Notes: generated by a model from the letters alone, not told the origin. 64,000 nt of DNA from an uncultured Pseudomonadota bacterium (GCA_963799255.1 CAWCWO010000015.1:1453-65452); one strand, 5' to 3'. Positions 5,237 through 10,205 are shown, numbered from the stretch's first letter. A program made the numbers and translations.

Positions 5237-6970
5237 ATGAGCGATGAGTCCCACGGGCGGTTGTCGCCCCGCGACCTCCTCACCTACTTTGGTGTCCCCG
5301 ATCACCCGCGAGTGTTCGTGCTCGGCTGCCTCGAACAACGCGTCACGATCCATGATCAACAAGTCCGAGCCGCAAACCTTGTCTGGGCGCTGGCCGAGAC
5401 CAAGCTGGTTAGGCCGGGCCAGAGCCTCGCGATCGTGGGTGCTGGTTTTGCGGGACTCACGGCAGCTGCGGCGGCCAAACGAATCGGCCTGGAGCCTGTC
5501 GTCTACGAGTATCGTCCCTGCTCTTGCCTCGATCAACGGGATTCCCCCCGCTGGATCCATCCGCGAATCTACGACTGGCCCGAGCGCGATTCGAAGGGGG
5601 AGCACCTGGTTCCCTTCATGTGCTGGACCCCGGACCGAGCGCGAGACGTCGTCGCGAAGATGGACGAGATCGTCACCGAGCACCAGTTCCTGCCGAAGTT
5701 CGAAACCAAGGTTGTCGGCCTGAAAGACAGGGCGACCGAGGTCGAGCTTGTCACGCAAAAGGACCGAGGGGGCCCTCTGGTCTCGGTCACCGTCGAACCG
5801 CCCGAGACCCACGCGGCCGTCATCCTCGCGCTGGGCTTTGGTCTCGAACCGATGCACGGCTACTGGAAGGAAGACCTCGCCGAGCAGGAGGGTCTCACAC
5901 CGATCTGGTATGTCAGCGGGCTCGGGGACGGAGCGCTCATCGATGTTGCCCGTCTGCGCCTCGGCTCGAAGTCCCACGACTTCTACGAGCTTCTGCAGGC
6001 CGTTGCGGACCAGACCCCCGAACTCGCACGAACGCAGCTATTGGACCTCGAACGCCACGCAAGAAACGAGTGGCGGGCTAACCGCTCGGGCCAAGCCGAC
6101 CAGCGTAAGCAGGACAGTTCCCGCGTGCTCGCCGATGGTATCCGTCGCATTCTCGACAACGTGTCGGCTCAGCTCCAACCCCTGAAGCAGACCATCGAAG
6201 GGGCGCTCCGAGCCGATCACACCCACCGCGTCTACCTGGTCGGACGTCAAGTCACACCATATGGGCTCGGCTCGAGCATCCTGAACCGTTGGGTTCTCGC
6301 TCTGCTCCTCGCCTGGGACGAGCGCACCGAGTACGCCCACGGCAAGCTCCGCCCGGTAGACGACGAACTCGACCGGTTCAACCCCAAACAGACAGTCTCG
6401 ACCCTCTCCGACGGAGCTGCCCAGTACATCATCCGGCATGGTCCGAAACGCCCGCTCCCCTACTTCGACCCCGAGACCACAACTACGAAACATCTTCACG
6501 ACCAGGTCGGAGTCTGGCTGAAGCCCATTTATCAGGCCCTGCGAGAGCGCCCAGCACCGCTCCTCGACGGACCGCGACATCCCCAGTGGCCCACCAGCTA
6601 CTGGCCGGACACCCTGCCGGCCGAGCGAGAAGCGACTTGTTACTGCACTTTCGTCGTCCAGGACTCCTCTACGGCTCCTCTCGTCGAGCTTCAGGTCCGC
6701 TACCTCGAGCAGTACGAGGCCACCGGCCTCCCCGTGATCTTGTGGCCGGACGCCGAGGAGCGGATCAAGTTCAGCGAAATCCGACGCATCACAGGGGAAC
6801 ACACGAAGACCCTCGCCGCAGACTCGAGCACCCTGGTCCCCACGCTCCGCTACTATGAAGCCCAGATCGCCCTCGACCGCGCAATCCCGAAGTATCCAGA
6901 AGCCCATTTGGTTCGCAACATCGACGAGCTCCTCGCTATCAGGGAAATCAGGCAAGATGACCGAGCATGA
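5237..6970 (+). CDS. FAD/NAD(P)-binding (two-dinucleotide-binding-domain flavoprotein-like) protein with a long uncharacterised C-terminal half
   Basis: 577-aa ORF. Rossmann start 'LAIVGAGFAGLTAAAAAKRIGLEPVVYE' (GxGxxG followed by an acidic residue). Later 'VILALGFG' and 'VSGLGDGALID'. The 3' end overlaps the next ORF by 14 nt. Confidence 0.55.
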   Translation: MSDESHGRLSPRDLLTYFGVPDHPRVFVLGCLEQRVTIHDQQVRAANLVWALAETKLVRPGQSLAIVGAGFAGLTAAAAAKRIGLEPVVYEYRPCSCLDQRDSPRWIHPRIYDWPERDSKGEHLVPFMCWTPDRARDVVAKMDEIVTEHQFLPKFETKVVGLKDRATEVELVTQKDRGGPLVSVTVEPPETHAAVILALGFGLEPMHGYWKEDLAEQEGLTPIWYVSGLGDGALIDVARLRLGSKSHDFYELLQAVADQTPELARTQLLDLERHARNEWRANRSGQADQRKQDSSRVLADGIRRILDNVSAQLQPLKQTIEGALRADHTHRVYLVGRQVTPYGLGSSILNRWVLALLLAWDERTEYAHGKLRPVDDELDRFNPKQTVSTLSDGAAQYIIRHGPKRPLPYFDPETTTTKHLHDQVGVWLKPIYQALRERPAPLLDGPRHPQWPTSYWPDTLPAEREATCYCTFVVQDSSTAPLVELQVRYLEQYEATGLPVILWPDAEERIKFSEIRRITGEHTKTLAADSSTLVPTLRYYEAQIALDRAIPKYPEAHLVRNIDELLAIREIRQDDRA

Positions 6971-9900: not shown

Positions 9901-10205
9901 AGCTCCACAGCCGCGCGAAAGCCAAGCACACTTGGCCCTTTCTGCGTGGCCTCAACTACAAGACCTGGCAGGCCGCCGACGACACACGGGTGTGGCTCTC
10001 GGCCCTGGCCTCCATGCTCGCGCTTACGCCCGGGAGCACGCCACGAGCCTGCGACGCGGCTGAGGCATGGGTTTCCGAGGACGGCATTCGCGAGCGCGTG
10101 GACAAAGACCCGACCAAGCTCAGATGGTGGGCCGCTACGCTCCTCGATCGTCTGAGCGAGGCCGAATCAGCCGGACCTGCACCCCGCTCGCCCGATAGGG
10201 ACTAG
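6957..10205 (+). CDS. ~1082-aa protein: unknown N-terminal region, central divergent PLD-fold-like module (DPY...HDR, MIT_C-like), C-terminal HEAT-like helical repeats
   Basis: The open frame runs from 6855. The ATG at 6957 is preceded by 'aggga' and overlaps the upstream stop (6968-6970). Motifs: 'SYLIVDPYFYTLGLDLI', 'VVTDKKIHDRMLFE', 'GFHLSNSLQRA', then helical repeats such as 'LFVRRAVAAALGLLQLED'. The start choice and the PLD-like call are tentative. Confidence 0.45.
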   Translation: MTEHDNWPSLDGCFALVHGELRDDQNWRLTSWWYAPKSEPPRLLFGWTFAWNDPEGAQTAGTWRVAYNQTPRIRRLDIQLPRPTMFVMLERLAQGDTLEEAASNAGLEPAAGAVQALLAKARVCSPADSSGAPEFVVAPWRILPSRWGLSTEGPASPLEYEPAMRSALVRVDKTAVLPGRDEEVRAVLAHLSRDCGLAFQPCGGASGRDIGRLGDLELLVFARPPSAEQRDDILTLRPGGEFIELELAPSFLEPKQPALIRWRQTHGGAVLDEGLASLPPSESPDVPRALRFPTISIGPSGADVEVWVEDSAREQYTLIHSSSHAWIRQVGFRLAAMGTRIEFPAAWIDDWVKQRRETVSTKARADAMRRISNTFSDNESRVGQPDELWHTAETNAKRMAALLAPSDSEAKWFPRGYDSVEGGKLDVGEWFRALVSEASAPRSYLIVDPYFYTLGLDLIARASGPGRRFVVVTTLDDNKDDAQTKRQTLLRAQKELAKVLPNLSVELYVVTDKKIHDRMLFELEASDDTSQSSPVRGFHLSNSLQRATDNYPLLVTPIPSDVLSNVVDGVAELIEGLAPLQEDPNEASPEKGLPQAIETTEEAKPPAVELEAELRKTLEDNDDTGFARLFPLVLEARADRHDLSNLTWTQHPNFLVLLEQLLISWRPAKPTRDAQQSIGLAQLTRRAGFGEWSATTTLWTHGHWSAFGDIVLCAGYPLLRAAPDRFVRAWEAACRAPNPESMDDQAQRGAVLESILEVVHRDYAISESQDELIELLTAGLRSEELFVRRAVAAALGLLQLEDKFTPATGRSTLEAMGSPRERVLTIATWVSELRVHANRNNSRESPKLESLRKAWMSWMVEWWPSSFTRSDLDFIADACDGPGRPGAWSLSTTSDLLIPLNNAGLLHASSVADLWLGMLEDRLEACMADDHHFYAPADIRLSELCIWLLSGTATELVIAEQAGEAPDAFDERIQSSLGRLSKLHSRAKAKHTWPFLRGLNYKTWQAADDTRVWLSALASMLALTPGSTPRACDAAEAWVSEDGIRERVDKDPTKLRWWAATLLDRLSEAESAGPAPRSPDRD

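What the first reader, a model, noticed from the sequence alone, without database searches (positions are those of the whole stretch)
5237..10205. Translationally coupled flavoprotein-like gene plus ~1082-aa PLD-like/HEAT giant: candidate undescribed two-gene conflict module
The two ORFs overlap by 14 nt, with the ATG at 6957 and the upstream stop at 6968-6970, which argues for coupled expression. ORF A (577 aa) opens with a textbook dinucleotide-binding fold ('LAIVGAGFAGLTAAAAAKRIGLEPVVYE'). It also has 'VILALGFG' and 'VSGLGDGALID', as in two-dinucleotide-binding-domain flavoproteins, but about half of it has no motif I recognise. ORF B has ~430 unassignable N-terminal residues. Next comes 'SYLIVDPYFY...KKIHDRMLFE...GFHLSNSL', which looks to me like the divergent PLD-fold (MIT_C-like, HDR instead of HxK) module. 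It ends with ~450 aa of HEAT-like helices. The pair lies 240 nt downstream of an Avs-like nuclease-NTPase and is followed by an IS1380 remnant, which is a defence-island context. I know of no named defence system built from a flavoprotein and such a giant. A redox or nucleotide-cofactor-consuming partner for a PLD-like effector is pure inference.
Basis: partly seen in the sequence, partly recalled or inferred. Interest (0 to 1): 0.8.

Follow-up and report, generated by a model that had tools for sequence, protein, structure and literature searches.

The report
Juno-type defence gene with flavoprotein partner
The giant protein belongs to the recently described Juno (VPA1262) anti-phage family, and here it is coupled in one operon to a flavin enzyme otherwise known as the effector module of Lamassu systems, a conserved pairing I found described nowhere that gives a testable handle on two defence modules of unknown mechanism.

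Summary
ORF A (5237-6970, 577 aa) and ORF B (6957-10205, 1082 aa) overlap by 14 nt, and every quoted motif is present.

- **ORF B:** a divergent, full-length member of the VPA1262 family. An August 2026 preprint named this family Juno and showed it works as a single-gene anti-phage system.
- **ORF A:** a free-standing copy of the FMO-like flavoprotein domain that forms the N-terminal effector of long-Lamassu LmuA (ABC-3C). It lacks LmuA's C-terminal half, and there is no LmuB.
- **The pairing is real and clade-specific:** 11 independent loci carry A directly upstream of B, usually overlapping by 4-14 nt. All fall in one Juno subclade. None of 39 classical Juno loci has A.
- **Motif decay:** Juno's central D-P-Y / H-D-R / S-N-S motif set is nearly invariant. 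H-D-R is lost in 7 of about 21 subclade representatives and in 0 of about 110 outside it.

This suggests B is the sensor or scaffold and A has become the effector, or an added one. A PLD/MIT_C-like fold for the central domain is only weakly supported. The "IS1380 remnant" is not confirmed. I rate this a new two-gene variant of a known kind, in a defence-island setting.

The parts
5237..6970 (+). ORF A, 577 aa: free-standing FMO/TrxR-like flavoprotein, the Lamassu-type effector domain
   Evidence: PADLOC LmuA model PDLC03858 matches residues 9-424 to model positions 2-423 of 827, E 2.9e-54. AF2 pLDDT is 80.8. Foldseek against PDB gives TrxR/FNR/Bdr/FMO/BVMO at E 4e-5 to 1e-3.
5261..6601 (+). 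Conserved flavoprotein core of A (residues about 9-455). It contains QQVRAAN (41-47), GAGFAG (68-73, nt 5438-5455), RWIHPRIYDWP (105-115, nt 5549-5581), GFG (200-202) and GLGDGA (228-233, nt 5918-5935).
   Evidence: These columns are invariant in the 60-sequence alignment A3 and the 6-sequence alignment A7. The motifs are kept in all 11 A partners.
6602..6967 (+). Variable C-terminal tail of A (residues about 456-577): poorly conserved, low model confidence, and absent from the L010 partner
   Evidence: Alignment A7; pLDDT 42-68 in this stretch.
6957..6970 (+). 14-nt overlap between the stop of A and the start of B (translational coupling)
   Evidence: Sequence read. The same 14-nt overlap occurs in L004, and 4-11 nt overlaps occur in seven other loci.
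6957..10205 (+). ORF B, 1082 aa: divergent full-length member of the VPA1262 (Juno) family
   Evidence: NCBIfam NF040700 VPA1262_N_dom scores 161.6 bits against a cut-off of 80. NF040699 VPA1262_fam scores 237 bits against a cut-off of 325. tblastn hits RefSeq 'VPA1262 family protein' genes over residues 37-1021. A family HMM covers positions 18-1039 in about 80 metagenome relatives.
6957..8243 (+). B N-terminal region (residues 1 to about 429): mixed beta/alpha, part of the VPA1262 N-domain, presumed sensor part
   Evidence: No match in PDB or Pfam.
8244..8681 (+). B central domain (residues about 430-575). It carries the family's near-invariant polar residues: D448-P449-Y450 (nt 8298-8306), T473, H516-D517-R518 (nt 8502-8510) and S541-N542-S543 (nt 8577-8585). 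It is a candidate active site, possibly with a PLD/MIT_C-like fold.
   Evidence: Conservation across non-redundant family members is 194/197 (D448), 189-190/197 (HDR) and 179-195/197 (SNS). These are the only invariant residues in 44 classical members. MIT_C similarity is weak.
8754..10202 (+). B C-terminal alpha-helical repeat region (residues about 600-1082). It is shared with classical Juno, with motifs LRVxANR, GPxxGxWxxSTTxDLLxPL and RPFxRSxxYxxW.
   Evidence: Alignments A4 and A5. All-helical secondary structure in the low-confidence model. Sub-threshold HEAT hits.

Best explanation
5237-10205 is a two-gene anti-phage operon: a flavoprotein-linked variant of the Juno (VPA1262) system.

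**Shown**
- B is a full-length Juno-family protein.
- A is a free-standing copy of the flavoprotein domain that sits in the effector position of long-Lamassu LmuA and of some STAND NTPases.
- The two genes are translationally coupled.
- The pairing is conserved across one monophyletic Juno subclade.

**Inferred**
- B is the infection sensor and scaffold, as in single-gene Juno, whose trigger and mechanism are unknown.
- B's central domain, with its near-invariant D-P-Y / H-D-R / S-N-S residues, is Juno's ancestral catalytic or ligand-binding site.
- A is held inactive in a stoichiometric complex with B. On sensing, A is released or activated as a toxic NAD(P)H- and O2-dependent oxidase or oxygenase.
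- That activity would deplete reduced pyridine nucleotide, make peroxide, or oxidise an essential metabolite. The result would be abortive infection.
- In several relatives the H-D-R/N residues of B have decayed. This implies A can take over the effector role. In this window both sites are intact, so both may act.
For: **B belongs to the Juno family**
- NCBIfam hits to the VPA1262 models.
- RefSeq-annotated VPA1262 proteins match residues 37-1021.
- A family HMM aligns over the full length, including the C-terminal half.
- Juno from Pantoea and Vibrio gave more than 100-fold protection against T4, Bas35, Bas45 and lambda-vir in E. coli (preprint).

**A is a Lamassu-type effector domain**
- PDLC03858 E 2.9e-54 over model positions 2-423 of 827 only.
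- Positive control P0104 matches the whole model, E 3e-304.
- A Rhizobium plasmid homologue is the first gene of an annotated ABC-three-component operon: LmuA-like, then middle component, then a 1041-aa ATPase.
- FMO is listed as an LmuA effector of long Lamassu in PMC12663957.
- The same domain lies N-terminal to NACHT and NB-ARC domains.

**The pairing is conserved and clade-specific**
- 11 independent loci carry the pair, with junctions that overlap or nearly abut.
- All lie in one NJ clade.
- 0 of 39 classical loci with at least 1.9 kb of upstream sequence have A.

**Relaxed constraint on B's central site only where A is present**
- HDR is lost in 7 of about 21 clade representatives and 0 of about 110 outside.
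- All 5 HDR-less proteins whose context could be read have A directly upstream.
- They lose H, R and N but keep the G and S of the motif, and four of five keep D-P. Only P0172 was checked for the C-terminal motifs, which it keeps.
- All 11 A partners keep their nucleotide-binding and family motifs.

**Defence context**
- In the window: PDC-M54A, a PLDc_2-helicase-DUF3427 gene and AbiEii.
- Near homologues: SIR2-HerA, GmrSD, HipA, AAA_15/21, IS66 and type I R-M.
Against: - No experiment exists on any A-B pair, and Juno's own mechanism is unknown.
- No biochemical activity is known for the FMO-like domain in any defence system, so the NAD(P)H-oxidase idea is pure analogy.
- One clade member (L009, a Myxococcota MAG) has B without A within 8 kb. 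B can therefore stand alone, and A is not obligatory.
- A lacks a conserved adaptor domain. Its C-terminal tail is variable and is absent in L010.
- A physical A-B interaction was not tested.
- The clade association reflects essentially one evolutionary origin, so the Fisher values are descriptive only.
- The metagenome loci were found with patterns from the SNS motif region, so they are biased towards intact motifs. The HDR-loss statistic therefore rests on the unbiased HMMER representative set only.
Confidence: 0.55

Rival explanations
1. B is the complete sensor-plus-effector, as in single-gene Juno. A is an accessory regulator rather than an effector. It could be a redox or cofactor sensor that gates B, a maker or destroyer of a small-molecule signal read by B's H-D-R pocket, or an antitoxin-like restraint on B.
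For: Classical Juno works as one gene. L009 keeps B without A. In the window B's central motifs are intact. A has no recognisable adaptor domain.
Against: In every other architecture where the domain's position can be read, it occupies the effector slot: LmuA N-terminus, or N-terminal to NACHT/NB-ARC. B's conserved central residues decay specifically when A is present. That is hard to explain if B stays the only effector and that site is its active site.
Confidence: 0.25
2. A and B are two independent single-gene defence systems that merely sit side by side in a defence island.
For: A-like proteins can occur alone. P0010 (624 aa) lies in an integrase/ArdC element with no B. B-like proteins can also occur alone.
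Against: Start and stop overlap by 4-14 nt in most pairs. The same order and orientation hold in 11 loci that have diverged to 22-49 % identity and have otherwise unrelated neighbours. The A-linked B proteins are monophyletic.
Confidence: 0.07
3. The pair is not immune at all. It would be a metabolic or housekeeping flavoenzyme with a large scaffold partner.
For: A matches general FAD-oxidoreductase models. One locus (L096) sits among permease, LysR and dehydrogenase genes.
Against: Distribution is patchy and rare: 312 clusters for the whole B superfamily among 1.84 billion representatives. Family members have experimentally shown anti-phage activity. The known contexts of A's domain are defence systems. 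Most loci have defence or mobile neighbours. No conserved metabolic neighbour is shared between loci.
Confidence: 0.05

Closest known systems
Juno / VPA1262 family single-gene anti-phage system (bioRxiv 10.64898/2026.08.01.741415; NCBIfam NF040699 and NF040700)
   Same: B aligns with family members over its whole length: the N-terminal region, the central D-P-Y / H-D-R / S-N-S domain and the C-terminal helical half. It passes the N-domain model cut-off and sits in a defence island.
   Different: B scores below the full-length family cut-off (237 against 325 bits) and belongs to a distinct subclade. That subclade is translationally coupled to an upstream flavoprotein gene, which classical Juno lacks (0 of 39 loci; an Anabaena plasmid gene is stand-alone). 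The subclade also tolerates loss of the H-D-R/N residues.
Long Lamassu (ABC-3C) with FMO-type LmuA effector (PADLOC PDLC03858; PMC12663957)
   Same: A's residues 9-424 are homologous to the N-terminal flavoprotein effector domain of this LmuA type (E 2.9e-54). The signature motifs QQVRAxN, GxGxxG, RWxHPxIYDWP and GxGDG are shared.
   Different: A lacks the LmuA C-terminal half (model positions about 424-827). No LmuB SMC-like ATPase or LmuC is in the operon or nearby, and the partner is a Juno-family protein instead. This is not a Lamassu system.
STAND (NACHT / NB-ARC) proteins with an N-terminal FMO-like domain, and HAD or GAF fusions of the same domain (uncharacterised; seen)
   Same: The same flavoprotein domain is placed at the N-terminus of a larger presumed sensor. 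This suggests a portable effector module.
   Different: Those are single polypeptides with NTPase or small-molecule-binding sensors. Here the domain is a separate protein next to a non-NTPase giant.
MITD1 C-terminal domain / Pfam MIT_C (PLD-fold, PDB 2YMB and 4A5Z)
   Same: Three motifs are collinear with similar spacing: [IV]DPY[IF], [LV]T[ST] and [IF]HDR, followed by a G-aromatic strand. Pfam MIT_C gives E 0.14. hhalign gives P 0.011, with 3 of 200 shuffles scoring as well.
   Different: The similarity is not statistically secure, and no reliable structure model of B exists. MITD1 is a non-catalytic membrane binder and lacks the S-N-S motif. Juno's near-invariant H, R, S and N residues look more like a variant of the catalytic HxK...GSxN site of PLD enzymes.

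Membership tests
VPA1262 / Juno family | Match to the NCBIfam N-terminal domain model NF040700 above its curated cut-off (80 bits) | tested here: met
   161.6 bits, E 2.8e-47, residues 124-575 against model positions 46-477 of 478
VPA1262 / Juno family | Match to the full-length family model NF040699 above its curated cut-off (325 bits) | tested here: not met
   237.2 bits, E 3e-70, two stretches. B is a divergent subfamily.
VPA1262 / Juno family | Collinear homology over the whole protein, including the C-terminal helical half | tested here: met
   tblastn to RefSeq 'VPA1262 family protein' genes covers residues 37-1021. A clade HMM covers positions 18-1039 of classical members. C-terminal motifs are shared in A4.
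VPA1262 / Juno family | Central near-invariant residues D-P-Y, H-D-R and S-N-S | tested here: met
   D448-P449-Y450, H516-D517-R518 and S541-N542-S543 are present. Family frequencies are 179-196 of 197.
VPA1262 / Juno family | Acts as a stand-alone single gene | tested here: not met
   B overlaps the upstream flavoprotein gene by 14 nt. The pairing is conserved in 11 loci. Classical members are stand-alone.
VPA1262 / Juno family | Protects against phage infection | not testable with these tools
   Shown only for the Pantoea and Vibrio proteins in E. coli (preprint)
Lamassu (ABC-3C), LmuA of FMO type | N-terminal FMO-like effector domain | tested here: met
   PDLC03858 positions 2-423 match A residues 9-424, E 2.9e-54
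Lamassu (ABC-3C), LmuA of FMO type | LmuA C-terminal half (model positions about 424-827) | tested here: not met
   There is no match beyond model position 423. Control P0104 matches positions 2-824.
Lamassu (ABC-3C), LmuA of FMO type | Adjacent LmuB SMC-like ABC ATPase, with or without the LmuC middle component | tested here: not met
   The next gene is the Juno-family protein, and no LmuB hit appears among neighbours. The control operon on Rhizobium plasmid NZ_CP031365 has both.
Two-dinucleotide-binding-domain flavoproteins (TrxR / FNR / FMO-like) | FAD-binding GxGxxG followed by an acidic residue at the end of beta-2, and a second GxGxxG/A motif | tested here: met
   GAGFAG at 68-73 with VVYE91, and GLGDGA at 228-233. 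Both are invariant across 60 homologues.
Two-dinucleotide-binding-domain flavoproteins (TrxR / FNR / FMO-like) | Fold similarity to solved members | tested here: met
   Foldseek of the pLDDT 80.8 model hits FNR2, TrxR, Bdr, OTEMO and FMO at E 4e-5 to 1e-3, probability 1.0. TM-scores are low (0.2-0.5), consistent with a large helical insertion and a different domain orientation.
Two-dinucleotide-binding-domain flavoproteins (TrxR / FNR / FMO-like) | FMO-identifying motif FxGxxxHxxxY/F, or a redox-active CxxC as in TrxR | tested here: inconclusive
   Only H108-x3-Y112 of the invariant RWIHPRIYDWP fits the FMO motif. There is no conserved CxxC pair. The motif definitions come from my own knowledge.
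PLD superfamily / MIT_C-like domain (B residues about 430-575) | Significant match to a PLD-clan profile | tested here: not met
   Pfam MIT_C gives E 0.14, 12.6 bits against a cut-off of 25, in 1 of 33 members. No PLD-clan family appears among 44 classical Juno proteins. A PDB profile search is empty.
PLD superfamily / MIT_C-like domain (B residues about 430-575) | HxK...GSxN-type catalytic motif, or its MIT_C counterpart, in the right order | tested here: inconclusive
   H-D-R...S-N-S is near-invariant and collinear with the DPYI / LTS / IHDR motifs of MITD1. hhalign gives P 0.011, and 3 of 200 shuffles reach the score.
PLD superfamily / MIT_C-like domain (B residues about 430-575) | PLD fold | tested here: inconclusive
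   The AF2 model from a 2-sequence alignment has pLDDT 40.4, and 26-46 in this domain. It is unusable, and the structure jobs are exhausted.

The most novel reading that the evidence does not exclude
The FMO-like flavoprotein is a real immune effector of a new biochemical class, killing by redox chemistry such as NAD(P)H oxidation or reactive oxygen. It moves as a cassette between unrelated sensors: Lamassu SMC complexes, STAND NTPases and Juno. In this Juno subclade it would be caught partway through replacing the ancestral H-D-R active site. Some members, including this window, keep both sites, and others keep only the flavoprotein. The subclade would then be a natural series for working out both what Juno's central domain does and what the Lamassu FMO effector does.
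Probability: 0.3. Interest if true: 0.75.

Novelty: new variant of a known kind. Interest (0 to 1): 0.6.

Why it matters
Juno was described only in August 2026, as a single gene with no known mechanism. The FMO-type Lamassu effector has no known activity either. This locus links the two.

- It shows that the flavoprotein domain can work as a separate subunit with a non-SMC, non-NTPase partner. This supports the idea that it is a portable effector.
- It points to Juno's central D-P-Y / H-D-R / S-N-S domain as the part whose function the flavoprotein can replace.
- That gives clear experiments: point mutants in either site, A alone, and HDR-less natural pairs.
- On the practical side, current PADLOC models would see only a partial 'LmuA' hit and miss the system. 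A two-gene model built on the 11 loci found here would fix that.

Tried and rejected
- **Word-indexed protein search with B, alone and as a 5-sequence profile.** Both runs returned only B itself and one relative. I replaced this with the full HMMER representative search and contig look-ups.
- **Genome scan with the B alignment.** It returned only 2 loci. It worked with 10 sequences.
- **AF2 of B from a 2-sequence alignment.** It gave pLDDT 40.4, which is unusable, so no fold search of B was run.
- **Profile searches of the B family and its central domain against PDB sequences.** No meaningful match: one chance hit at E 0.62 to a designed helical protein.
- **Pfam on 33 central domains and 44 full-length classical Juno proteins.** No recurrent family.
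- **Filing A under Lamassu.** Rejected, because the LmuA C-terminal half and LmuB are absent.
- **Filing the pair as part of the upstream PDC-M54A system.** Rejected, because none of the other A-B loci carries a PDC-M54A-type giant STAND gene next to the pair.
- **A third conserved gene.** Rejected. The small upstream ORFs in L004 and L005 are unrelated to each other, and the L004 one looks spurious. The AAA_15/21 genes near L004 and L005 are not conserved in position or strand.
- **IS1380 remnant.** Not found.
- **Rfam scan of the window.** Nothing.
- **Sigma-70 promoter scan.** Nothing in 4900-10500.
- **Papers and the last contig look-up.** The NAR 2020 ABC-3C paper is not held in the library. 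The last contig look-up (P0265) found no record.
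Full report
**1.

ORF A (5237-6970, +, 577 aa) and ORF B (ATG 6957 to 10205, +, 1082 aa) are both present. They overlap by 14 nt: B's ATG is at 6957 and A's TGA is at 6968-6970. 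An in-frame ATG at 6855 exists, but homologues start at the position equivalent to 6957. The upstream 1663-aa ORF ends 239 nt before A.

**2. What ORF A is**

- Pfam and NCBIfam recognise only the first dinucleotide-binding motif.
- PADLOC's LmuA model PDLC03858 matches residues 9-424 at E 2.9e-54, but only to model positions 2-423 of 827.
- A true full-length member of that model (P0104, E 3e-304, positions 2-824) turned up among A's homologues.
- On a Rhizobium plasmid, a homologue is the first gene of an operon annotated 'ABC-three component system protein', 'middle component 1' and a 1041-aa AAA ATPase. That is a long Lamassu, LmuA-LmuC-LmuB.
- PMC12663957 lists a flavin-containing-monooxygenase (FMO) domain among the N-terminal effector domains of LmuA, specific to long Lamassu.

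So A's core is that effector domain as a separate protein, without LmuA's C-terminal half and without LmuB.

An AF2 model from a 60-sequence alignment is confident (pLDDT 80.8; residues 10-460 mostly above 85). Foldseek places it among two-dinucleotide-binding-domain flavoproteins: FNR2, thioredoxin reductase, bacillithiol disulfide reductase, Baeyer-Villiger and flavin monooxygenases. E-values are 4e-5 to 1e-3 and TM-scores are low. By sequence, PDB shares only the roughly 35-residue Rossmann motif.

Family-invariant motifs are QQVRAxN, GxGxxG (68-73), RWxHPxIYDWP (105-115), GFG, YW, GxGDG (228-232) and RHG. There is no conserved CxxC. The last 120 or so residues of A are variable, poorly modelled, and missing from one partner.

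The same domain occurs N-terminal to NACHT, NB-ARC, HAD and GAF modules and to about 500-aa unknown regions. This is the behaviour of a portable effector module.

**3. What ORF B is**

- NCBIfam assigns residues 124-575 to 'VPA1262 family N-terminal domain' (161.6 bits, cut-off 80).
- The whole protein scores 237 bits against the VPA1262 family model, below its cut-off of 325.
- A full HMMER scan of 1.84 billion cluster representatives found only 312 related clusters.
- Alignments show that homology runs the full length, including the helical C-terminal half.
- tblastn against plasmids hits genes annotated 'VPA1262 family protein' over residues 37-1021.

The library holds four papers that mention VPA1262. 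The newest is bioRxiv 10.64898/2026.08.01.741415 (3 August 2026). It renames the family Juno. It shows that the single gene from Pantoea agglomerans or Vibrio parahaemolyticus reduces plaquing of T4, Bas35, Bas45 and lambda-vir more than 100-fold in E. coli. No mechanism is proposed. PADLOC 2.0 has no model for B.

**4. The pair is a conserved unit**

The nearest homologues of A and B are adjacent and overlapping on other contigs:

- L001/L002 (A 44 %, B 48 % identity, 4-nt overlap)
- L007
- L004 = L008 (a 9-Mb Polyangiales MAG chromosome, 14-nt overlap)
- L005/L006
- L090
- L010
- L093, L094, L096 and L098

In all this makes 11 independent loci. Most junctions overlap by 4-14 nt; the two exceptions have gaps of 6 and 32 nt.

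Neighbours differ from locus to locus and are often defence or mobile genes. They include SIR2-HerA, AAA_15/21 ATPases, GmrSD, HipA and IS66.

One relative (L009, a Myxococcota MAG, 32 % identity to B) has no A within 8 kb. It follows a type I R-M hsdS-hsdR pair directly.

Among 80 metagenome loci encoding Juno-family proteins, only L010 has an A-like gene. The 39 non-clade loci with at least 1.9 kb of upstream sequence all lack it. A RefSeq-annotated VPA1262 gene on an Anabaena plasmid is also stand-alone.

In neighbour-joining trees all A-linked B proteins form one clade of about 21 of 141 representatives, with L009 nested inside. The flavoprotein was therefore acquired once in this subclade and lost, or moved, at least once.

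**5. The central domain of B**

Across 197 non-redundant family members, the only near-invariant polar residues sit in residues 445-560:

- D448-P449 (194-196 of 197)
- T473
- H516-D517-R518 (189-190 of 197)
- G537
- S541-N542-S543 (179-195 of 197)
- the motif PLLxTPI

In 44 classical members the invariant set is W, DP, HDRY and S.S.Q. This looks like an active or ligand-binding site.

The evidence is weak:

- Pfam MIT_C appears once, at E 0.14.
- I recalled the human MITD1 C-terminal sequence and verified it against PDB 2YMB/4A5Z.
- hhalign of a 197-sequence profile against it lines up DPY[IF], [LV]T[ST] and [IF]HDR in order, with P 0.011.
- 3 of 200 shuffles score as high.
- The AF2 model of B was useless: it was built from a 2-sequence alignment, the only input allowed, and has pLDDT 40.

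I therefore treat the fold as unproven.

**6. A link between the two proteins**

In the unbiased HMMER representative set, eight proteins lack H-D-R at the aligned position.

- Seven are long enough to place in the tree, and all seven lie in the flavoprotein-linked clade. That is 7 of about 21, against 0 of about 110 outside it (Fisher 1e-6, descriptive only, since lineages are not independent).
- For all five whose context could be read (P0127, P0163, P0172, P0202, P0225), a flavoprotein gene lies directly upstream.
- These proteins have lost H, R and N but keep the G and S of the motif, and four of five keep D-P. I checked the C-terminal motifs only in P0172, which keeps them. They look like proteins with a retired site rather than pseudogenes.
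- All 11 A partners keep their signature motifs.

The simplest reading is that the flavoprotein supplies a function that makes B's central site dispensable.

**7. Most likely mechanism**

- **Shown:** family membership of both proteins, tight coupling, clade-specific conservation, and motif decay.
- **Inferred:** B senses infection as Juno does. A, made in fixed proportion with B, is the effector or a second effector. It would be a flavin-dependent oxidase or oxygenase whose unleashed activity arrests or kills the cell. Possible routes are NAD(P)H drain, peroxide, or oxidation of an essential metabolite.

In this window both sites are intact. The rivals are A as regulator or signal-maker for B, two independent neighbouring systems, and a non-immune function. 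I consider them less likely for the reasons given with each.

**8. Comparison with known systems, and novelty**

- This is not a Lamassu: there is no LmuA C-terminal half and no LmuB.
- It is a Juno-family system that fails two Juno criteria: the full-length model cut-off and the single-gene architecture.
- I found no description of a flavoprotein-Juno pair in the library or in PADLOC 2.0.
- I rate it a new two-gene variant of a known kind.

**9. Context in the window**

- ORF 6-4997 is PADLOC candidate PDC-M54A (E 3e-236). Its N-terminus has a weak hit to another LmuA effector model, and it also has a weak Avs2 hit.
- Further along are a PLDc_2-helicase-DUF3427 protein (33746-36850) and an AbiEii toxin (49617-51005).
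- An IS1182/IS5-like transposase lies at 14700-16076.
- The IS1380 remnant was not found.
- Relatives come from Myxococcota MAGs and the window is 58-69 % G+C. The host is probably a myxobacterium-like organism. This is inference.

Noticed in passing
window 5079-5136: Two 23-nt direct repeats, CAGTTCGGCAGA(TG/AC)TGACCACGG, lie at 5088-5110 and 5114-5136, 26 nt apart. A partial third copy (GTGACCACGG) sits just upstream. They fall in the 239-nt gap between PDC-M54A and ORF A and could be an operator for the A-B operon.
   Followed up: no
window 6-4997 (+): A 1663-aa STAND-like protein matches PADLOC candidate PDC-M54A (E 3e-236). Its N-terminal 130 residues weakly match a different LmuA effector model (PDLC03848), and it has a weak Avs2 hit. 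It is not found next to the other A-B pairs, so it is probably a separate system.
   Followed up: partly
window 10265-10915 (-) and 11063-12415 (-): Two ORFs convergent with B (216 and 450 aa) have no hit in Pfam, NCBIfam or PADLOC, and 10206-12600 has no DNA match in the plasmid collection.
   Followed up: partly
window 14700-16076 (+): An IS1182/IS5-like DDE transposase (DUF772 plus DDE_Tnp_1; NCBIfam IS1182 E 1e-47, below its cut-off). It is the nearest mobile-element gene to the pair.
   Followed up: no
window 17642-21405 (+): An RtcB RNA ligase (17642-19204) has its stop overlapping the start of a 734-aa ORF (19201-21405) with no family hit in Pfam, PADLOC or NCBIfam. This is an unexplained coupled pair.
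   Followed up: no
window 33746-36850 (+) and 49617-51005 (+): More defence-type genes in the same window: a PLDc_2 + ResIII/DEAD helicase + DUF3427 protein, and an AbiEii nucleotidyltransferase toxin.
   Followed up: no
L096/L097 2443-10290: Here the A-B pair lies between a 451-aa amino-acid permease gene and a 247-aa permease fragment. The cassette may have inserted into or next to a permease gene.
   Followed up: no
L009 2536-11180: The one subclade member without a flavoprotein follows a type I R-M hsdS-hsdR pair after a gap of about 400 nt, on the same strand.
   Followed up: partly
P0010 (JGI 3300050821 contig, genes at 2594-4468): A 624-aa A-like flavoprotein (33 % identity) stands alone in an element with a phage integrase and ArdC, with no Juno-like gene. 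It may be a single-gene form.
   Followed up: no
P0020, P0024, P0023, P0025: The FMO-like domain is fused N-terminally to NACHT, NB-ARC, HAD-phosphatase and GAF modules. Many 900-980-aa proteins pair it with an unassigned C-terminal half. These architectures are uncharacterised and defence-like.
   Followed up: partly
L004 3991-6799 and 15107-16677: The Polyangiales A-B pair sits between a SIR2-HerA pair and an AAA_15/AAA_21 ATPase with a 187-aa partner. A protein kinase and an RHS toxin follow, making this a dense conflict island.
   Followed up: no
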